NCBI RefSeq assembly: GCF_001677475.2
Contig: NZ_CP015229.1
Strand: one strand, 5' to 3'
Length of the DNA: 64,000 nt
Origin: Escherichia coli
GTDB taxonomy: Bacteria; Pseudomonadota; Gammaproteobacteria; Enterobacterales; Enterobacteriaceae
The notes under the pieces are model-generated. The model worked only from the letters and a program-made list of their open reading frames with translations, was not told the DNA's origin and ran no database searches. The position numbers and the translations under genes were made by a program. Positions 29,779 to 38,268 of the stretch are shown piece after piece; position 1 is the stretch's first letter, and every line of letters starts with the position of its first letter.

Positions 29779-30273
29779 TTAATTTGCGATTAACTGTTCG
29801 TTTATTTTGTCGATAATATTGATTGAGGGATCTGACGCTACGACGCGTAAATCCAGTATGACGCCAAGATTATTTAACTCATGAAATGCGTTAATATCAT
29901 CATCATCTAATGAAACCGCTTTGGTTAACTGTTTTTTACCGGGCCGCCAGGCCATGCCGCCAATATTCAGGGTGTCTATTTTTACCCCCTGGCGAACCAT
30001 CGCTAAGGCATCCTGTGGGCGAGTGAAAAGATAAAAAACGGTTTCGTCCTGATATTGCGGGTTGTGATAAACCGCGACGGCTTTTTCAATATTGACCACG
30101 TTAACCTTCATTCCCGGTGGCGCAGCCTGACGCAATAATGTCCGGCGCACTTCATCGTTATAAACTTCGTCATTGCAGATAATAATGCGCTGGGCGTTAG
30201 CCACTTTCGACCAGACGGTAGTGACCTGGCCGTGGATCAGGCGGTCATCAATGCGGGCGAGCGTAATGTTCAT
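29779..30273 (-). CDS. sorB: PTS sorbose-specific EIIB component (mannose family)
   Basis: 164-aa ORF with N-terminal LARIDDRLIHGQV motif (phosphorylatable His of mannose-family EIIB). Confidence 0.88.
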   Translation of the reverse strand: MNITLARIDDRLIHGQVTTVWSKVANAQRIIICNDEVYNDEVRRTLLRQAAPPGMKVNVVNIEKAVAVYHNPQYQDETVFYLFTRPQDALAMVRQGVKIDTLNIGGMAWRPGKKQLTKAVSLDDDDINAFHELNNLGVILDLRVVASDPSINIIDKINEQLIAN

Positions 30274-30680
30274 CAGAAATCCTCCTCTGCTGTTGCCACC
30301 TGTCTCCAGACGACGCAGGTTTGCTTTGCGATTTGCGTCAGGTGTTCACACAGTTCATCAACATTCATGCTGTCCTGGTTATCAACCAGTTCGAGCGCCA
30401 GCGGCAGAGAAAGGCCGCTGATTACCCGCAGACGAGGATTGCGCATCGCAAGCATCGCTGCCGCATTCCACGGGCTGCCGCACTGTAAATCCACGGCGAT
30501 TAGCCACTCGTCATGATTGTGAATGCTCACTAACTTCTCCAGCTTTGCCACAATGTCTCCGGCGTTCTCGCCGGGCACAAATTCAACGGCTTCAACATTG
30601 GCGTTGCCGTAAACCATCTGAACCGATTCCAGCATGGCGCAAGCTAATTTGCCGTGGGCACAAAAAATGGCGTTGACCAT
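30273..30680 (-). CDS. sorF: PTS sorbose-specific EIIA component (mannose family)
   Basis: 135-aa ORF, mannose-family EIIA-like (MVNAIFCAHGKLA); stop overlaps the sorB start. Confidence 0.85.
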   Translation of the reverse strand: MVNAIFCAHGKLACAMLESVQMVYGNANVEAVEFVPGENAGDIVAKLEKLVSIHNHDEWLIAVDLQCGSPWNAAAMLAMRNPRLRVISGLSLPLALELVDNQDSMNVDELCEHLTQIAKQTCVVWRQVATAEEDF

Positions 30681-30689
30681 AAAGCCTCC

Positions 30690-31496
30690 TTATCCGCGTG
30701 TTTTGCCGCCCGCAATGTTAGTGGTTACTCCGGTGATGTAGCTGGCGCGTTCAGACAGCAGATAACAAACAAAATCAGCGACTTCTGCTAATCTTCCGGC
30801 GCGCCCAATAGGAATGGCGTTTTTGGTATAGCCTTCACGCAGCTGCTCGACGGTGATATTGCGCGTCCACGCCAGCGCTTCTTCATATTCCGGCGTGCGC
30901 AGTCCTGTTTTTTCCAGAATCCCCGGCGCGATACCGACCACACGGATACCGTGCTTACCCAGCTCTTTCGACCAGGAACGAGTGAAGCTATTGAGCGCAG
31001 CTTTAGTGGCGGCGTAGCAGCTCTGGCCTTCTGAGCCTTCCAGCCCACTTTCTGAGGAAACATTCACAATCACGCCATCGTGTTGTTTGACCATCTGTCG
31101 CGCCACCGCCTGCGACATCAGAAAAACGCCTTTCTGGTTGATATTGACCATTTTTTCGAATGCAGCTTCGTTGAGTTCATACTGCCCGGCAGGCGCTTTC
31201 TCATCGACCAGCAGACGCGGGAAATTGACCCCGGCGTTATTGACCAGACCGTCGATGCGATCAAAACGCTGGATAATTTCCGCTACCGTATGATTTACCT
31301 CTTTGGCGCTGGAAATATCGGTCGGCCAAAACTGATAGCCTTTATGACCTTCATATTGTCCATCGCCACCGTGAATATCGACCATCTGTACATTCGCGCC
31401 TTGTGCTAATAATTCCTCTACAATCGCCAGACCAATACCGGATGCGCCGCCGGTGACGATAATGATTTTATCCTGCAAATTTAACCACGTTTGCAT
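30690..31496 (-). CDS. sorD: Sorbitol-6-phosphate (D-glucitol-6-P) dehydrogenase, short-chain dehydrogenase/reductase
   Basis: 268-aa ORF with TGGASGIG Rossmann motif and YxxxK catalytic motif. Confidence 0.85.
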   Translation of the reverse strand: MQTWLNLQDKIIIVTGGASGIGLAIVEELLAQGANVQMVDIHGGDGQYEGHKGYQFWPTDISSAKEVNHTVAEIIQRFDRIDGLVNNAGVNFPRLLVDEKAPAGQYELNEAAFEKMVNINQKGVFLMSQAVARQMVKQHDGVIVNVSSESGLEGSEGQSCYAATKAALNSFTRSWSKELGKHGIRVVGIAPGILEKTGLRTPEYEEALAWTRNITVEQLREGYTKNAIPIGRAGRLAEVADFVCYLLSERASYITGVTTNIAGGKTRG

Positions 31497-31565
31497 AACA
31501 GACTCCTGATTTTAGATAATAGGGACCCGCCGTAATTTTTATTACGGTAAACATCGGGAAGATTT

Positions 31566-32516
31566 TTATTTCAGTAATAGTTCAGCTGTGCTGCTATTCG
31601 TTACCAGACAATTAATATATTTTCCACGCAGTGCACCAACAATTCCGCTGTATTTTTCTTCACTCATGGCAATGCCAATGGAATATCGTGCCTGCTTTAA
31701 TTTATTCATTTCGATAGAGAGTGTTTTTTCGCTCATATTCGTTTCAACCATTGCGCCGTGAATATCAAAAAAGCGCGAGCAAATATCGCCAGCAACCTGG
31801 CGGGCATTCAGGTCGTCACTCTCTTCACCACCATAAAACGCATGCCAGTTAGCGCCGTCGCGAATGGCCGGTGAGCCAATTCCCACCAGGGCGACATCCA
31901 GATTATCCCAGTAGGCAGAGATGGTTTTAAAGTGCTGAGACTGCATGATCCCATTACGAATTAATGGGTTATCCAGCAGAGCCGGAAAATCCGCGAGATG
32001 CGATTCCCCTTTCAGCTTCGCTGCCGCGCTGTAGGTTAATGTGTTTACATGATAGCGGCTTTCGAGTTTACCGGACGGTCCGCCAATAATTGGTACGCAG
32101 ATTAACTGCCGCGATTGCCCCGCCTGCGGTAAGTTTTCAACCAGTGCGCTCACCGCGCGACCCCAGGAAAAACCGACAATATCGCCAGGCTCCAGCAAGC
32201 GATCCAGCAGTTGCGCGCCGTGTAACCCCATCATCGCCAGTTGAGTCTCTTCATCCTCATCATTTCCCGACACCACCACAACGTCTTTCAGGCCAAACTT
32301 TTGCTTCAGTTGCTGCTCCAGCCAGAGATTTTCGTTGTAGTCATAGTTGATGGCGATGGTGACAATTCCCTGATCGCGGCCTCGTTTAAGCAAGCGGCTG
32401 ATGGTGGTGCGGTAAATACCCAGTTCGCGCGCAATTTGCGCCTGCGTCATATCCTGTTCGTAATAGAGTTGGGCAATCTTCACAATCAAACGGATATCGT
32501 CACTGTTTTCCATTGC
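31566..32516 (-). CDS. sorC: SorC-family transcriptional regulator of the sorbose operon
   Basis: ORF 31566..32597; start set at internal ATG (MENSDDIRLIVKIAQLYY), preceded by an AGGAGG Shine-Dalgarno; N-terminal HTH plus sugar-binding domain. Confidence 0.85.
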   Translation of the reverse strand, partial: AMENSDDIRLIVKIAQLYYEQDMTQAQIARELGIYRTTISRLLKRGRDQGIVTIAINYDYNENLWLEQQLKQKFGLKDVVVVSGNDEDEETQLAMMGLHGAQLLDRLLEPGDIVGFSWGRAVSALVENLPQAGQSRQLICVPIIGGPSGKLESRYHVNTLTYSAAAKLKGESHLADFPALLDNPLIRNGIMQSQHFKTISAYWDNLDVALVGIGSPAIRDGANWHAFYGGEESDDLNARQVAGDICSRFFDIHGAMVETNMSEKTLSIEMNKLKQARYSIGIAMSEEKYSGIVGALRGKYINCLVTNSSTAELLLK

Positions 32517-32529
32517 CGCCTCCTGGTTC

Positions 32530-32543
32530 TGCACATTTGTGCA
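32530..32543. promoter_or_regulatory. Palindromic operator-like site in the sorC 5' leader
   Basis: tgcacatttgtgca, a perfect 6-bp inverted repeat around a central tt, just upstream of the sorC ribosome-binding site; related copy tgcacatttgt at 32642-32652. Confidence 0.4.
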
Positions 32544-32860
32544 AATACGCTTTCTCACCGCTTGATCTGATATAACCCCATCATGATGGCCTTTCAAAGC
32601 GATTTTTCACTCTTTGCATGGGGAGAAATAGCGCTTTCTCTTGCACATTTGTTTCTCTGCGTAGTAGTCATCAGCACAGGTGTGCAGCGATTCGTAATAT
32701 GTTGATTATCTTTATTTTGCCAGGCAAATTTGCATCGTACTTCCGGAGACACTTTTGTGATAAAAGGCGTGGCAGATCACATTTAATTTCGACGTTGCCG
32801 CATAACCCTGTTTTTCCCCGCTAAGAGGTACGGTATATTCCGCGTTTTACAGGAGAATTT

Positions 32861-33733
32861 ATGCTGCCCGACTCATCAGTCCGTTTAAATAAATACATCA
32901 GCGAAAGCGGAATTTGCTCACGCCGCGAAGCGGATCGCTATATCGAGCAAGGCAATGTGTTCCTTAATGGCAAGCGAGCCACCATTGGCGATCAGGTGAA
33001 ACCCGGCGACGTTGTGAAAGTAAACGGTCAGTTGATTGAGCCTCGGGAAGCCGAAGATTTGGTACTTATCGCCCTGAACAAGCCCGTCGGTATTGTCAGC
33101 ACCACCGAAGATGGCGAGCGCGATAACATTGTCGATTTCGTTAACCACAGCAAACGCGTGTTCCCGATTGGCCGCCTGGATAAAGACTCCCAGGGGCTGA
33201 TTTTCCTCACCAATCACGGCGATCTGGTGAATAAGATCCTCCGTGCGGGTAACGATCATGAGAAAGAGTATCTGGTGACGGTCGATAAACCGATTACCGA
33301 TGAATTTATTCGTGGTATGGGGGCGGGGGTGCCAATCCTCGGGACAGTGACTAAAAAGTGTAAAGTCAAAAAAGAAGCGCCGTTTGTCTTCCGCATTACC
33401 CTGGTGCAGGGGCTGAACCGTCAGATCCGTCGCATGTGCGAACACTTTGGTTACGAAGTGAAAAAGCTGGAACGTACGCGCATTATGAACGTCAGTTTAA
33501 GCGGCATTCCACTGGGTGAGTGGCGCGATTTAACTGACGATGAGTTAATCGACCTGTTTAAACTCATCGAAAATTCCTCTTCCGAGGCAAAACCTAAAGC
33601 GAAGGCCAAGCCGAAAACGGTAGGCATCAAACGTCCAGTCGTTAAGATGGAAAAAACGGCGGAAAAAGGCGGTCGCCCGGCAACCAACGGTAAGCGTTTT
33701 ACCTCGCCGGGGCGTAAAAAGAAGGGGCGCTGA
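32861..33733 (+). CDS. rluF: 23S rRNA pseudouridine synthase F
   Basis: 290-aa ORF with S4 domain and RluA/RsuA-type catalytic region (RLDKDSQGL); lysine-rich C-terminal tail. Confidence 0.92.
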
Positions 33734-33865
33734 TTAACGCCTCAGACTGATGAAAACGTCCAAAAAGTGCTCGGACAGTCCCCTCGCCCCTTCGGGGAGA
33801 GGGTTAGGGTGAGGGGAAGATTGTGTCCACACAGACGAGTGAAAATCTCAGGCGTTGATTGTTCA

Positions 33866-34138
33866 TTAGCGCCTGCCGCGCGTCGACGTATTTGCTGACC
33901 AGCTAAATGACGCTTCAGGATCCGGTTTATAAGCCTGCTTTTTCTTCAATTGGCGGGCTTTTTTCGCTTCAGCCTCACGCTCGACCATTAATTTATCGAT
34001 GTACTCTTTCTTAATGCTGTTGGTTTCGGAGTTGGTCAGTACGCGACCATGCGCAATCCGCGCCCGATCCAGCAGTGTTTTAAGTTCACGCTGCTCGCGT
34101 TCAGTCATCTCTTTTTGGGTAATACGCGGGAGTGCCAT
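33866..34138 (-). CDS. yjbD: Uncharacterised small protein YjbD
   Basis: 90-aa ORF between rluF and lysC, as in K-12. Confidence 0.8.
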   Translation of the reverse strand: MALPRITQKEMTEREQRELKTLLDRARIAHGRVLTNSETNSIKKEYIDKLMVEREAEAKKARQLKKKQAYKPDPEASFSWSANTSTRGRR

Positions 34139-34390
34139 GATGTTGCCCTCAGTGAGCCAGAGAGTTCAGTGTACGGGAATTCGTTTGCGAGCAGAACTGA
34201 TAATATTCATTTTGCCTTCTCTTAACTATTTATCTCTTTCGATAATTAATTAGAGATGCAGATAAAAAAATTAAAGGCAATTATTCTCCGATAAAGACGC
34301 TGGTTAACAGAGTACAGGCTCGTTTATTGATGAGCATAGTGACAAGAAAATCAATACGGCCCGAAATATAGCTTCCAGGCCATACAGTAT

Positions 34391-35740
34391 TTACTCAAAC
34401 AAATTAAAATGCAGCTTCTGCACCACCTGCTCGGCATCTTCGCCGGGCACCAGGAAGCACAGGTTATGGCTGGATGCGCCGTAACAAATCATGCGAATGT
34501 TGAACGGTTCCAGTACGCCGAATACCTCTTTGCCAACGCCGCAGGCTTTTGACAGGTCATTGCCAATCAACGCGACCAGTGCCAGACCTTCTTCCACCTC
34601 CACCCGGCACAGTGCGGAAAGCTCCATCAGCAGAGATTGCGTCAGCAACGTATCGCCAGTGGAGGTTGAACCGGTGGTATCAAGGGTTAATGCCACGCTC
34701 ACTTCTGACGTGGTGATTAAGTCTACCGAAATATTATGCCGCGCGAGGATGCCGAAAACTTCTGCGAGGAAGCCGCGAGAATGCAGCATATTCAGGCTGT
34801 GCAAAGTGAGCAGAGTCTGATTGCGACGAAGCGCCAGCGCGCGGAACAGCGGCGGATTTTCAGTTTTATTGCACACCAGCGTACCACCTGCGCGTGGGTC
34901 TTTGCTGGAGCCGACAAAGACCGGGATATCGCTGCGTACTGCGGGTAGCAACGTTGCCGGATGCAGTACTTTTGCACCAAAAGTTGCCATCTCTGCCGCT
35001 TCGGCAAACGCGATTTCATCAATGCGTTTTGCTGCGGAAACTACGCGTGGATCGGTGGTGTAGATGCCCGGGACGTCGGTCCAGATATCAACACGAGATG
35101 CGTGTAAAGCCTCCGCCAGCAAGGCTGCCGTATAATCGCTGCCGCCACGGCCAAGCGTCGTTGTACGACCTTTATTTTCGCTACCGATAAATCCCTGGGT
35201 GATCACTAAGCCTTCATTGAGGCGTGGGAGCAGCTGCAGAGCGGCCAGTTCCGCCAGCGCGGCTACATCTGGCTCTGCACGACCAAATCGGTCGTTGGTA
35301 CGCATCACTTTACGTACATCAAACCACTGTGCCTGAACATCGCGTTCGCGCAGGATCTCAACAAACAGCAGGGTCGACATCAGCTCGCCGTGGCTGACCA
35401 GTTCATCTGTCAGCGCCGGAGACGTTGCCAGCGCCGCTGCTTCTGCCAGAACAGTAATGTTCTCCAGCAGACGTTCAATCTCTTCACGGATAACGTTCGG
35501 GTAACGCAGACGTTCCAGAATGGCAAACTGGATGTTGCGGATAGCGTCGAGTTTTTCGAATCGCTCGCCAGGTTCCAGCCCTTCCGCTAAAGCGACCAGC
35601 AGATTAGTGATACCAGCAGAAGCCGAGAGGACTACTAAACGCACGTTGGCATCAGAAAGCACAATATCAGCGCTGCGGTTCATGGCGTCAAAATCAGCTA
35701 CGCTGGTACCGCCAAATTTGGAGACAACAATTTCAGACAT
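34391..35740 (-). CDS. lysC: Lysine-sensitive aspartokinase III
   Basis: 449-aa ORF recognised as LysC (amino-acid kinase domain plus ACT domains). Confidence 0.95.
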   Translation of the reverse strand: MSEIVVSKFGGTSVADFDAMNRSADIVLSDANVRLVVLSASAGITNLLVALAEGLEPGERFEKLDAIRNIQFAILERLRYPNVIREEIERLLENITVLAEAAALATSPALTDELVSHGELMSTLLFVEILRERDVQAQWFDVRKVMRTNDRFGRAEPDVAALAELAALQLLPRLNEGLVITQGFIGSENKGRTTTLGRGGSDYTAALLAEALHASRVDIWTDVPGIYTTDPRVVSAAKRIDEIAFAEAAEMATFGAKVLHPATLLPAVRSDIPVFVGSSKDPRAGGTLVCNKTENPPLFRALALRRNQTLLTLHSLNMLHSRGFLAEVFGILARHNISVDLITTSEVSVALTLDTTGSTSTGDTLLTQSLLMELSALCRVEVEEGLALVALIGNDLSKACGVGKEVFGVLEPFNIRMICYGASSHNLCFLVPGEDAEQVVQKLHFNLFE

Positions 35741-36050
35741 AACTACCTCGTGTCAGGGGATCCATTTTCAGCCTTGGCACAAGGGAAGAGCGGAAGACGG
35801 GTGGGCGCAGAGCGATACTTCGCTACTATTTTCACCCAGAAGTGCTCCACCACTTGCGAAACGCCCGACTGCGAACGCTTCTGGTGACAACCCAGGGGAT
35901 TCAGCCCCTGTAGCCGATGATGAACGTGGCCAGCCGTTCAATCACCTCGGCGATGCACCCCCTCAGGTGTTATCACAGGACTGGCTCCTCCAACACCGTT
36001 ACTTGGGCAACGCGCCTCTTCTGGCCTGCGCTAGCGCAGGTAGTACATTT
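35741..36050 (-). ncRNA. Lysine riboswitch (L-box) in the lysC 5' leader
   Basis: Roughly 300-nt untranslated leader upstream of lysC, whose reverse complement matches the known E. coli lysC leader; boundaries approximate. Confidence 0.8.
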
Positions 36051-36264
36051 ATAAATAAAGGGTGAGCGGGGCGGTTGTCAACGATGGGGTCATGCGGATT
36101 TTTCATCCACTCCTGGCGGTCAGTAGTTCAGCTAATAAATGCTTCACTGCGCTAAGGGTTTACACTCAACATTACGCTAACGGCACTAAAACCATCACAT
36201 TTTTCTGTGACTGGCGCTACAATCTTCCAAAGTCACAATTCTCAAAATCAGAAGAGTATTGCTA

Positions 36265-37914
36265 ATGAAAAACATCAATCCAACGCAGACCGCTGCCTGG
36301 CAGGCACTACAGAAACACTTCGATGAAATGAAAGACGTTACGATCGCCGATCTTTTTGCTAAAGACGGCGATCGTTTTTCTAAGTTCTCCGCAACATTCG
36401 ACGATCAGATGCTGGTGGATTACTCCAAAAACCGCATCACTGAAGAGACGCTGGCGAAATTACAGGATCTGGCGAAAGAGTGCGATCTGGCGGGCGCGAT
36501 TAAGTCGATGTTCTCTGGCGAGAAGATCAACCGCACTGAAAACCGCGCCGTGCTGCACGTAGCGCTGCGTAATCGTAGCAATACCCCGATTCTGGTTGAT
36601 GGCAAAGACGTAATGCCAGAAGTCAACGCGGTGCTGGAGAAGATGAAAACCTTCTCGGAAGCGATTATTTCCGGTGAGTGGAAAGGTTATACCGGCAAAG
36701 CAATCACTGACGTAGTGAACATCGGGATCGGCGGTTCTGACCTCGGCCCATACATGGTGACCGAAGCACTGCGTCCGTACAAAAATCACCTGAACATGCA
36801 CTTTGTTTCTAACGTCGATGGCACCCACATCGCGGAAGTGCTGAAAAAAGTAAACCCGGAAACCACGCTGTTCCTGGTAGCATCTAAAACCTTCACCACT
36901 CAGGAAACCATGACCAACGCCCATAGTGCGCGTGACTGGTTCCTGAAAGCGGCAGGTGATGAAAAACACGTTGCGAAACATTTTGCGGCGCTCTCCACCA
37001 ATGCCAAAGCCGTTGGCGAGTTTGGTATTGATACTGCCAACATGTTCGAGTTCTGGGACTGGGTCGGCGGCCGTTACTCTTTGTGGTCAGCGATTGGCCT
37101 GTCGATTGTTCTCTCCATCGGCTTTGATAACTTCGTTGAACTGCTTTCTGGCGCACACGCGATGGACAAGCATTTCTCCACCACGCCTGCCGAGAAAAAC
37201 CTGCCTGTCCTGCTGGCGCTGATTGGCATCTGGTACAACAATTTCTTTGGCGCGGAAACTGAAGCGATTCTGCCGTATGACCAGTATATGCACCGTTTCG
37301 CGGCGTACTTCCAGCAGGGCAATATGGAGTCTAATGGTAAGTATGTTGACCGTAACGGTAACGTCGTGGATTACCAGACTGGTCCGATTATCTGGGGTGA
37401 ACCAGGTACTAACGGTCAGCACGCGTTCTACCAGCTGATCCACCAGGGAACTAAAATGGTACCGTGCGATTTCATCGCCCCGGCTATCACCCATAACCCG
37501 CTCTCTGATCACCACCAGAAACTGCTGTCTAACTTCTTTGCTCAGACCGAAGCGCTGGCGTTTGGTAAATCCCGCGAAGTGGTTGAGCAGGAATATCGCG
37601 ATCAGGGTAAAGATCCGGCAACGCTTGACTATGTAGTGCCGTTTAAAGTGTTCGAAGGTAACCGCCCGACCAACTCCATCCTGCTGCGCGAAATCACCCC
37701 GTTCAGCCTGGGGGCGTTGATTGCGCTGTATGAGCACAAAATCTTTACTCAGGGCGTGATCCTGAACATCTTCACCTTCGACCAGTGGGGCGTTGAGCTG
37801 GGTAAACAGCTGGCGAACCGTATTCTGCCGGAACTGAAAGATGACAAAGAAATCAGCAGCCACGATAGCTCGACCAATGGTCTGATTAACCGCTATAAAG
37901 CGTGGCGCGGTTAA
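36265..37914 (+). CDS. pgi: Glucose-6-phosphate isomerase
   Basis: ORF 36259..37914 begins at a TTG; first ATG at 36265 ([13 protein letters not shown]) gives 549 aa. Confidence 0.95.
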
Positions 37915-37934
37915 TTTAAAAACCTTAATAACAA

Positions 37935-37960
37935 TGCCGACGTTATGTCGGCATTTTTTT
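37935..37960 (+). terminator. Rho-independent terminator after pgi
   Basis: tgccgacgttatgtcggca hairpin followed by ttttttt. Confidence 0.85.
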
Positions 37961-38268
37961 ATCAGATAAATCCCCTTGTCTGTGATTTAACGGAAATCAT
38001 ACCGTGAGGTTAATCCTAAAATAGATTTTTAATCGTTGTTTATTTCGGAAAATACGCAGATTAATTACTTTTGTTTTTATTTTAAGTTTATGATTTTTAT
38101 TGTTATTTAAATATAAGTTGAAACTTATATTTGATATTCATTCCAATTATCCTAAAACGCCATCGCTAATTCCCCGCGCCGTAATTCGCATGCTTTAGTT
38201 GTGTATACTCGATCCCGCCCGAAATGTTTTTGGGTAAATCTCCATTCATTCAATGAAGGGAAATTGTT

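What the first reader, a model, noticed from the sequence alone, without database searches (positions are those of the whole stretch)
33734..33865. GC-rich imperfect palindrome between convergent rluF and yjbD
The 130-bp spacer contains gtcccctcgccccttcggggagagggttagggtgaggggaag (33776-33820), a G/C-run-rich imperfect inverted repeat with no T-tract. It is flanked by aacgcctcag (33737-33746) and its near-complement ctcaggcgtt (33847-33856). It may be a bidirectional terminator or insulator, or a small repeat-family element.
Basis: seen in the sequence. Interest (0 to 1): 0.2.

Follow-up and report, generated by a model that had tools for sequence, protein, structure and literature searches.

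The report
BoxC repeat inserted between convergent genes
The GC-rich palindrome is one copy of BoxC, a known short E. coli repeat of unknown function, which was inserted in some strains exactly where two converging genes used to touch; following it up showed that repeats of this kind bracket a small endonuclease gene (DUF559) in many bacteria, which may explain where they come from.

Summary
The core (33781-33815) matches the published BoxC / PIT / TMECO / HPG1 consensus exactly. It is type A, with a TTA second loop and one stem mismatch.

The "bidirectional terminator or insulator" reading is not supported. The + strand has no T-tract after the hairpin, and the literature reports no terminator activity for these elements.

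New at this locus:
- The whole 132-bp spacer is a derived insertion, present in about a third of 5,426 E. coli genomes.
- In the other genomes and in outgroups, the rluF and yjbD stop codons abut or overlap.
- The repeat unit is longer than published. A 38-nt left arm is shared with other copies, and long left arms lie directly next to a hairpin.

A lead found in passing: BoxC-like units bracket DUF559 (Vsr-like endonuclease) genes, including E. coli ycjD.
- Five of five enterobacterial YcjD homologues carry them.
- In 17 of 18 unrelated DUF559 loci, the two flanks of one gene share their own long repeat, mostly inverted.

This suggests a nuclease-plus-repeat system analogous to REP/RAYT. No activity has been shown.

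The parts
33734..33865 (.). 132-bp lineage-specific insertion that makes up the whole rluF-yjbD spacer
   Evidence: Absent from ST131 and O157:H7, where the two stop codons abut. Absent from Salmonella, Yokenella and Klebsiella, where the stops overlap. Only 0-bp and 132-bp classes appeared in 60 sampled genomes. The exact boundaries are ambiguous by a few bases.
33726..33741 (.). Palindrome GGCGCTGATTAACGCC holding the rluF stop codon. It is the reverse complement of the 16-mer at the empty site of ST131.
   Evidence: On the - strand, this palindrome plus CCTTCTTTTT scores as a terminator-like site for yjbD.
33742..33779 (+). Family-conserved left arm TCAGACTGATGAAAACGTCCAAAAAGTGCTCGGACAGT, with a small internal hairpin GTCC..GGAC at 33757-33777
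   Evidence: It recurs next to BoxC at gntP/fimH, alx/sstT and ygfF/gcvP, and in part at yihR/yihS and pstB/pstA. The motif CTCGGnCAGTCCCCTC is also found in Pseudomonas copies.
33781..33789 (+). C block CCCTCGCCC of the BoxC/TMECO core
   Evidence: Pattern match
33790..33794 (+). First loop CTTCG
33795..33803 (+). First G block GGGAGAGGG. It pairs with the C block with one G.A mismatch (type 'mm').
   Evidence: Table 1 of PMC4666352
33804..33806 (+). Second loop TTA, which defines type A / HPG1
33807..33816 (+). Second G block GGGTGAGGG plus one G. With the first G block it forms four G3 tracts.
33819..33849 (.). Locus-specific right part of the insertion, including CAGACGAGTGAAAA, a 79% direct repeat of 33743-33756
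   Evidence: The stretch 33818-33865 occurs in 1,773 of 5,426 genomes, one place each, always at this locus. It has no similarity to any other fetched locus. The direct repeat is D1.
33851..33873 (.). Second, interrupted copy of the stop-stop palindrome, GGCGTTGATT[GTTCATT]AGCGCC, holding the yjbD stop codon
   Evidence: (repeats I1, I2, I6)

Best explanation
The spacer is a strain-specific insertion. It carries one copy of the BoxC repeat (also called PIT, TMECO or HPG1), type A with one stem mismatch, together with that family's conserved left arm.

Ancestrally the convergent genes rluF and yjbD shared a short palindrome in which their stop codons overlapped or touched. In one E. coli/Shigella lineage, a roughly 78-bp repeat unit plus about 50 bp of filler and duplicated junction sequence was inserted at that palindrome.

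I read the element as a selfish, non-autonomous repeat that lands beside hairpin-forming sequences by a break-and-repair or template-switch route. I do not read it as a device selected to terminate or insulate transcription here. Its local effects are by-products: it separates the two reading frames by 132 bp and adds a strong GC hairpin to both 3' untranslated regions.

Shown: family membership, multi-copy status, derived insertion, and the shared left arm. Inferred: the mode of insertion and the lack of a locus-specific function.
For: - The core matches CCCTCNCCC-N3-6-GGGNGAGGG-N3-GGGNGAGGG exactly (the consensus is). Its 21-mer equals the published HPG1 sequence.
- The family has a median of 16 and a maximum of 28 places per E. 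coli genome.
- The empty allele in ST131 and O157:H7 has abutting stops.
- Outgroups: Salmonella, Yokenella and Klebsiella have overlapping stops (a shared TTAA), and a divergent Escherichia-like contig has abutting stops.
- Only 0-bp and 132-bp alleles were seen among 60 sampled genomes. The occupied allele is in about 1,772 of 5,426 genomes.
- The left arm is shared with other copies.
- Every long left arm lies directly after a GC hairpin, at five loci.
- A second polymorphic BoxC site, gntP/fimH, also joins right after a hairpin, and it is also not a clean duplication-flanked insertion.
- The K-12 copy carries two G-to-A changes that break the pattern. This is decay, not conservation.
- The literature reports no promoter or terminator activity.
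Against: - The junctions are not clean. The centre of the palindrome reads TAATCA in empty alleles and TGATTA in occupied ones. The right 48 bp has no source that I could find. The insertion mechanism is therefore not established.
- No transposition of BoxC has ever been observed.
- A benefit from separating two convergent genes, or from the hairpin stabilising the mRNA 3' ends, is not excluded. I had no transcript data for either allele.
- The patchy distribution across phylogroups could reflect recombination or more than one event.
Confidence: 0.7

Rival explanations
1. The element is a bidirectional transcription terminator or insulator, selected because it stops RNA polymerases from running from rluF into yjbD and the reverse.
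For: - It sits between convergent genes.
- It holds a strong GC hairpin, and the spacer folds to -47 and -49 kcal/mol, z = -2.5 and -3.8.
- Two terminator-like sites lie on the yjbD strand, at 33777..33757 and 33741..33726.
- Six of 16 HPG1 copies in K-12 lie between convergent genes, and Kaplan et al. suggested a terminator role.
Against: - No U-tract follows the hairpin on the rluF strand.
- One of the two - strand sites is the ancestral palindrome itself, which exists without the insertion.
- PIT/BoxC elements showed no terminator activity in earlier assays, as summarised by Holder et al..
- Two thirds of E. coli genomes and all outgroups examined have no spacer.
- The K-12 copy is decaying.
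Confidence: 0.12
2. The element works as a DNA or RNA structural switch (intrastrand triplex, G-quadruplex or hairpin). It either regulates neighbouring genes or destabilises the locus, and the variation around it is a consequence of that instability rather than of insertion.
For: - Oligonucleotides of this sequence form a stable triplex, and related ones a G-quadruplex, in vitro (PMC4666352 and PMC5100583).
- The core has four G3 tracts with 3-nt loops.
- TMECO loci are more variable between strains than control loci.
- This locus and gntP/fimH are both polymorphic.
Against: - In vivo footprinting gave no sign of a triplex, and the duplex form dominated once the complementary strand was present.
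- At this locus, polarity from outgroups shows that presence is the derived state. The variation here is gain, not loss through instability.
- No consistent gene association has been reported.
Confidence: 0.1
3. The whole 132-bp spacer is one complete miniature transposable element (MITE) with terminal inverted repeats AACGCCTCAGA / TCTCAGGCGTT.
For: - A 14-nt inverted repeat, 86% complementary, lies at the two ends.
- The spacer is present or absent as a unit.
- Its size is typical of a MITE.
Against: - The right 48 bp is found only at this locus, one place per genome. The 132-bp unit is therefore not repeated.
- There is no clean target-site duplication.
- Part of the terminal inverted repeat is the duplicated target palindrome.
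Confidence: 0.04

Closest known systems
BoxC / PIT element / TMECO / HPG1 repeat of E. coli (Bachellier et al.; Hoyne and Maher 2000; Holder et al. 2015, PMC4666352; Kaplan et al. 2016, PMC5100583)
   Same: It matches the consensus exactly and has the type A TTA loop, a one-mismatch stem and the identical 21-nt G-rich run. It is intergenic, multi-copy, and lies between convergent genes like 6 of 16 K-12 HPG1 copies.
   Different: This locus is missing from both published K-12 lists, because the K-12 copy has two G-to-A changes. Here the unit is shown to extend about 38 nt to the left, to be a derived insertion rather than a site of loss, and to sit next to a pre-existing palindrome.
REP / REPIN repeats with their RAYT transposase
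   Same: Both are short GC-rich extragenic hairpin repeats. Both occur singly and as inverted doublets with fixed spacing, with clade-specific variants that bracket a single small nuclease gene.
   Different: The sequence is different, and the associated gene is a PD-(D/E)xK Vsr-like DUF559 endonuclease rather than an HUH tyrosine transposase. No activity on the repeat has been shown. The REP consensus is absent from this spacer.
Intrinsic (Rho-independent) bidirectional terminators between convergent genes
   Same: Both are a GC-rich hairpin in a short spacer between convergent genes.
   Different: The + strand lacks a flanking U-tract, and the A/T tracts are not symmetric around the hairpin. 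A third G-rich block plays no part in a terminator. The element is dispensable in most strains.
ERIC / IRU elements (about 127-bp imperfect palindromes of enterobacteria)
   Same: The overall size is similar, the ends are inverted repeats, the location is intergenic, and presence varies between strains.
   Different: There is no sequence resemblance on reading the spacer, and the full 132-bp unit is single-copy. This was judged from the sequence and from my memory of the ERIC consensus. No ERIC model was run.

Membership tests
BoxC / PIT / TMECO / HPG1 | Matches CCCTCNCCC-N3-6-GGGNGAGGG-N3-GGGNGAGGG | tested here: met
   One exact match at 33781-33815, and 0 in 100 shuffles. The consensus is quoted from PMC4666352.
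BoxC / PIT / TMECO / HPG1 | Type A / HPG1 signature: TTA second loop and the 21-mer GGGAGAGGGTTAGGGTGAGGG | tested here: met
BoxC / PIT / TMECO / HPG1 | Many dispersed copies per genome | tested here: met
   A median of 16 and a maximum of 28 places per genome in 5,408 of 5,426 E. coli genomes
BoxC / PIT / TMECO / HPG1 | Strictly intergenic | tested here: met
   It lies between the rluF and yjbD stop codons.
BoxC / PIT / TMECO / HPG1 | The single strand forms an intrastrand triplex or G-quadruplex in vitro | not testable with these tools
   Published for near-identical oligonucleotides. This copy differs from them only in the first loop.
BoxC / PIT / TMECO / HPG1 | Agreement with the original 56-bp BoxC consensus of Bachellier et al. 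| not tested
   That consensus is not in the held library. The equivalence of BoxC and TMECO rests on Holder et al..
Intrinsic terminator | GC-rich stem-loop | tested here: met
Intrinsic terminator | A U-rich tract directly 3' of the stem, on both strands if bidirectional | tested here: not met
   No site on the + strand. There are two weak sites on the - strand, and neither is at the main hairpin.
Intrinsic terminator | Measured termination | not testable with these tools
   The literature is negative for the family. I could reach no Term-seq data for this locus.
MITE | Terminal inverted repeats | tested here: inconclusive
   A 14-nt, 86% inverted repeat exists, but it overlaps the duplicated target palindrome.
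MITE | Target-site duplication | tested here: not met
   There is no clean duplication, and the centre of the palindrome differs between alleles. The gntP/fimH site replaces 11 nt.
MITE | The whole unit is repeated in the genome | tested here: not met
   The right 48 bp is single-copy.
REP/RAYT-like nuclease-plus-repeat system (considered for the BoxC family as a whole) | Repeats occur as inverted doublets with fixed spacing | tested here: met
   (-,+) doublets are spaced 88-90 nt apart in Pseudomonas sp. dw_612 and 49 nt apart in Pseudomonas EaCA-3. E. coli type A/type B pairs are described in the literature.
REP/RAYT-like nuclease-plus-repeat system (considered for the BoxC family as a whole) | Repeats bracket a cognate nuclease gene | tested here: met
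   DUF559 genes are flanked or overlapped by TMECO in L036, L108, L119, E. coli ycjD and five of five enterobacterial homologues. A hairpin lies near the ORF end in 21/26 loci, against 1/24 in a control window. The two flanks of one gene share a repeat in 17/18 loci.
REP/RAYT-like nuclease-plus-repeat system (considered for the BoxC family as a whole) | The nuclease binds, cuts or mobilises the repeat | not testable with these tools
   No experiment exists, and no paper in the library links DUF559 to these repeats.

The most novel reading that the evidence does not exclude
BoxC/TMECO-type repeats are the terminal repeats, and the dispersed non-autonomous derivatives, of a compact selfish cassette. 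The cassette is a roughly 120-aa DUF559 (Vsr-like, PD-(D/E)xK) endonuclease gene bracketed by clade-specific repeats of 25-70 nt, mostly inverted. Each repeat contains a pyrimidine-arm/purine-arm hairpin and a third G-rich block. E. coli ycjD would be the resident copy.

The rluF/yjbD element would then be a half-unit (spacer arm plus type A repeat) deposited at a hairpin through nuclease-induced break repair. The relationship would parallel REP/REPIN and RAYT, but with an unrelated nuclease fold.

A speculative detail: pairing the C block CCCTCGCCC with the third block GGGTGAGGG gives a G:T mismatch, which is the kind of substrate that Vsr nicks.
Probability: 0.5. Interest if true: 0.8.

Novelty: already known. 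Interest (0 to 1): 0.5.

Why it matters
At the locus itself little is at stake. This is one more copy of a repeat described since the 1990s, and it explains a spacer that might otherwise be annotated as a terminator.

Two points go further. First, outgroup polarity shows that at least some of the "genomic instability" reported around these motifs is gain of the element, not loss. That argues for mobility.

Second, BoxC/PIT/TMECO has had no known origin, partner protein or function for about 30 years. A consistent physical link to DUF559 endonuclease genes across distant bacteria gives a concrete, testable candidate for the partner. It would also assign a role to a large domain family of unknown function, including E. 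coli YcjD.

Tried and rejected
- **Rfam.** The permissive search of 33000-34600 gave only chance-level hits: Antizyme_FSE at 20 bits against a cut-off of 40, and RNase P at 11 bits. A gathering-threshold search of six repeat-bearing loci gave nothing.
- **Source of the right 48 bp.** It is unique to this locus in E. coli and has no similarity to any fetched locus.
- **Clean target-site duplication or simple indel.** Rejected. The centre of the palindrome is reverse-complemented between alleles, and 7 extra bases interrupt the second copy.
- **Term-seq or SEnd-seq evidence for rluF/yjbD.** No paper in the library mentions both genes, and the SEnd-seq paper is not held.
- **Correlation of ycjD with BoxC copy number inside E. 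coli.** Uninformative. O157:H7 lacks ycjD yet keeps about 12 places. The 'places per record' proxy is confounded by other parts of the query.
- **Autonomous elements between distant TMECO pairs.** Most intervening ORFs are ordinary genes for a transporter, a dehydrogenase and DHPS. Only the short-spaced pairs held DUF559.
- **ERIC/IRU and REP membership.** Rejected on reading the sequence.
- **Ancestral spacer with deletion in B2 and E strains.** Rejected from the outgroups.

Full report
**1. The observation**

The window carries rluF (32861-33733, +) and yjbD (33866-34138, -) with lysC beyond. The two genes are separated by 132 bp.

Of the two 10-mers, 'aacgcctcag' is at 33736-33745 and 'ctcaggcgtt' is at 33847-33856. 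The repeat finder extends them to 14-nt arms, 33733-46 and 33846-59, 86% complementary. It also reports an inner pair, 33779-89 and 33807-17, 91% complementary.

As RNA the spacer folds to -47.1 kcal/mol on the + strand (z = -2.5) and -48.7 kcal/mol on the - strand (z = -3.8). The consensus scan finds no terminator-like site on the + strand. On the - strand it finds two weak ones in the spacer, at 33777..33757 and 33741..33726. The description is therefore correct apart from offsets of one or two bases.

**2. What it is**

The core at 33781-33815 reads CCCTCGCCC-CTTCG-GGGAGAGGG-TTA-GGGTGAGGG. This matches the pattern that Holder et al. (2015, PMC4666352) give for the 'TMECO' triplex motif. Those authors equate TMECO with the older BoxC repeat and with the PIT elements of Hoyne and Maher.

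The copy is their type A (TTA loop) with one mismatched stem pair, which is the commonest type in K-12. Its G-rich 21-mer is identical to 'HPG1' of Kaplan et al. (2016, PMC5100583).

A 56-bp query around the core finds a median of 16 and up to 28 places per genome in 5,408 of 5,426 complete E. coli genomes. Almost all are chromosomal. The element is therefore a member of a known dispersed repeat family.

Neither published K-12 list contains the rluF/yjbD locus. The reason is that the K-12 copy reads GGGAAAAGGG where this window has GGGGAGAGGG, so it fails the pattern.

**3. The spacer is a derived insertion**

In ST131 and O157:H7 the annotated rluF and yjbD genes are directly adjacent...GGGGCG(T/C)TAA|TCAGCGCCTGCC....

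Starting from YjbD homologues, I fetched the junction from outgroups:
- Salmonella, Yokenella and Klebsiella have overlapping stop codons, ..CGTTAACG.. with a shared TTAA.
- A divergent Escherichia-like contig has stops that abut.

The empty state is therefore ancestral and the 132 bp is a gain.

In a spread sample of 60 genomes only two length classes appear:
- 0 bp in 39 rows, including B2, O157:H7, O104:H4 and O111:H8.
- 132 bp in 20 rows, including K-12.

The 48 bp on the right (33818-33865) occurs in 1,773 genomes, once each, always at this locus. About one third of E. coli genomes therefore carry the insertion.

The event was not a clean cut-and-paste:
- The 16-bp palindrome at the junction has the centre TAATCA in empty alleles and TGATTA in occupied ones. 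These are reverse complements, and the change swaps which gene ends in TGA and which in TAA.
- The occupied allele holds two copies of the palindrome, at 33726-41 and 33851-73. The second copy is interrupted by 7 bases.

**4. The repeat unit is longer than the published 36 nt**

The 38 nt to the left of the core (33742-33779) recurs, at 84-89% identity over 38-41 nt, next to BoxC at alx/sstT and gntP/fimH. Tabulating 14 K-12 loci shows the following:
- The full arm, CAGACTGATGAcAAaGTCnAAAAAgTGCnCGGnCAGT, is also present at ygfF/gcvP.
- Part of it is present at yihR/yihS and pstB/pstA.
- Every type A copy keeps about 18 nt of it.

Many copies also share a right arm, GAACAGGCCaGCAC, which this copy lacks.

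All five long left arms begin directly after a GC-rich hairpin or palindrome, in one case after a 7-nt T-rich gap. At this locus that is the stop-stop palindrome. At the other loci it is apparently the upstream gene's terminator.

A second polymorphic site, gntP/fimH, joins at the same kind of position, after GCCTGCCAATGGCAGGC-TCA. There the element replaces 11 nt rather than duplicating a target. With so few sites this is an indication, not proof, of a preference for hairpin-adjacent targets and of a repair-type insertion.

**5. Function at this locus**

A dedicated bidirectional terminator is unlikely for five reasons:
- The rluF strand has no U-tract.
- One of the two - strand sites is the ancestral palindrome followed by CCTTCTTTTT inside rluF's last codons. 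It exists without the insertion.
- The family showed no promoter or terminator activity in earlier assays, as summarised by Holder et al..
- Most strains lack the spacer.
- The K-12 copy is decaying.

In vitro triplex and quadruplex formation is published, but in vivo probing did not detect it.

My best reading is a selfish repeat whose local effects are by-products. Those effects are 132 bp of separation and a strong hairpin in both 3' UTRs. I could not obtain transcript-end data.

**6. Beyond E. coli**

The hits were in several Pseudomonas genomes (more than 30 stretches in one) and in Contendobacter, Polaromonas, Bradyrhizobium, Mesorhizobium and Asticcacaulis. Hits also came from metagenome-assembled genomes (MAGs) of Deltaproteobacteria, Thermodesulfobacteriota, Verrucomicrobiales and Gracilibacteria, and from one short contig binned as Methanomicrobiaceae. 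Nearly all of these copies have the upstream C block.

In Pseudomonas sp. dw_612 the repeated unit is about 190 nt. It consists of an inverted type B motif, a conserved centre of about 90 nt, and a type A motif. Twenty-nine copies aligned. Across the loci, (-,+) doublets have fixed spacing, 88-90 nt in one genome and 49 nt in another. Rfam has no family for them.

**7. A protein partner candidate**

While screening the sequence between nearby motif pairs, I found ORFs of 115-126 aa that match Pfam DUF559 at E = 1e-31 to 1e-41 in three loci. These loci are L036 (a rumen bacterium), L108 and L119 (Asticcacaulis). Each ORF directly abuts motifs, and in two loci motifs lie on both sides in (-,+) orientation.

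E. coli YcjD is also DUF559 (E = 1e-49). Its gene ends inside a degenerate BoxC hairpin. An intact BoxC lies 168 nt downstream, and a duplicated fragment of the gene's 3' end lies between them.

Two tests used genes that were not chosen for the motif.

(a) Five YcjD homologues were chosen by protein similarity alone: Enterobacter asburiae, Klebsiella oxytoca, Kluyvera, Phytobacter and Franconibacter.
- All five have a type B motif overlapping the ORF end. The protein ends ..PSPRPSP, with the stop codon in the hairpin loop in four of the five (the Franconibacter protein reads on to ..PSPWKGEGENQ).
- Four are followed 11-95 nt later by a type A motif, one of them degenerate.
- The genes sit in four different neighbourhoods, so the gene and its repeats move together.

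(b) A scan of viral contigs with a DUF559 alignment gave 80 loci.
- Among the non-identical loci at 36-53% identity, a pyrimidine-arm/purine-arm hairpin lies within -40..+150 nt of the ORF end in 21/26.
- One lies within 190 nt upstream in 17/26.
- A control window 510-700 nt upstream has one in 1/24.
- In 17 of 18 loci the two flanks of the same gene share a 25-70-nt repeat, mostly inverted, that scores above the 95th percentile of cross-locus pairs. The median score is 35 against 10.5.
- The repeat sequence differs between DUF559 clades but keeps the C-arm, G-arm and extra G-block design.

Further facts bear on the lead, and they cut both ways:
- The nearest solved structure is 3HRL, an 'endonuclease-like protein'.
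- No paper in the held library links DUF559 to these repeats.
- ycjD is present in 3,378 of 5,426 E. coli genomes. Strains without it, such as O157:H7, still hold about 12 BoxC places. Inside E. coli there is therefore no simple dependence.
- No Salmonella or Yersinia names appear among the top 120 YcjD homologues. This fits the reported lack of the motif in those genera but is weak evidence.

The architecture is shown. Any activity of the endonuclease on the repeat is inference.

**8. Verdict**

The finding is a genuine, non-random feature and a member of an already described repeat family.

The locus adds a clear case of gain of a BoxC unit at a stop-stop palindrome. The follow-up yields a lead that appears to be undescribed and is testable: BoxC-type repeats belong with DUF559 endonuclease genes.

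Noticed in passing
L147 (E. coli K-12 1350900-1352500); L036 6987-7434; L119 297-888; L108 3465-3855; L148-L156; L157-L194: DUF559 (Vsr-like endonuclease) genes, including E. coli ycjD, are bracketed or overlapped by BoxC/TMECO-like repeats. Five of five enterobacterial YcjD homologues carry them. In 17 of 18 loci from viral contigs the two flanks share a cognate repeat, mostly inverted. A hairpin lies near the ORF end in 21/26 loci, against 1/24 in a control window.
   Followed up: yes
L039-L070 (Pseudomonas sp. dw_612), L078-L105 (Pseudomonas EaCA-3): In Pseudomonas the motif occurs mainly as (-,+) inverted doublets with fixed spacers of 88-90 nt or 49 nt. These form a repeated unit of about 190 nt or about 115 nt, with dozens of copies per genome. 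Rfam has no match.
   Followed up: partly
L024-L028 (Gracilibacteria MAG), L021-L023 (Verrucomicrobiales MAG), L074 (Methanomicrobiaceae MAG, 2.7-kb contig): The exact 21-nt G-rich run with its upstream C block occurs far outside Proteobacteria, including five long AT-rich contigs of a candidate-phyla-radiation genome. The single archaeal hit is on a short contig and could be a binning error.
   Followed up: no
window 30000-38000: The window is only 98.4% identical to its best match among 5,426 complete E. coli genomes, although the 132-bp spacer is 100% identical in hundreds of them. The source is probably Shigella or an unsampled Escherichia lineage.
   Followed up: partly
window 31566-32597 (-) and the corresponding positions in L001-L004 and L129: Gene content next to the locus varies between strains. 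Upstream of rluF, this window, ST131 and O157:H7 have a SorC-type sugar-binding regulator, while K-12 and OSUCMP42NDM have pepE. Beyond yjbD, OSUCMP42NDM and L129 have a slipin/Band_7 gene instead of lysC.
   Followed up: no
window 33726-33741 and outgroup loci L127, L130, L131: Ancestrally rluF and yjbD end in one shared palindrome with overlapping stop codons (TTAA). On the yjbD strand, the palindrome plus a T run inside rluF's last codons looks like yjbD's own terminator.
   Followed up: partly
L006 1150-1330 against L237 and L238 (gntP/fimH): The BoxC copy at gntP/fimH is also polymorphic. O157:H7 and U15A carry 11 nt (GTTCGGATTGT) where other strains carry the element of about 80 nt. The left junction again lies right after a hairpin.
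   Followed up: yes
L147 400-520 (K-12, downstream of ycjD): A fragment of the ycjD 3' end (GGAGACGGTGCTGGAGAATATTC...) is duplicated between the gene and the intact BoxC, as if a second cassette end had been left there.
   Followed up: no
H213 (strain ETEC6) and H174/H114 (strain ET625): ETEC6 has an IS1 inside ycjD. ET625 has a rearranged rluF/yjbD locus with only partial matches.
   Followed up: no
L143 (pstB/pstA), L140 (frlR/yhfS), L006 (gntP/fimH): Several BoxC copies lie next to classical REP sequences in the same intergenic region.
   Followed up: no
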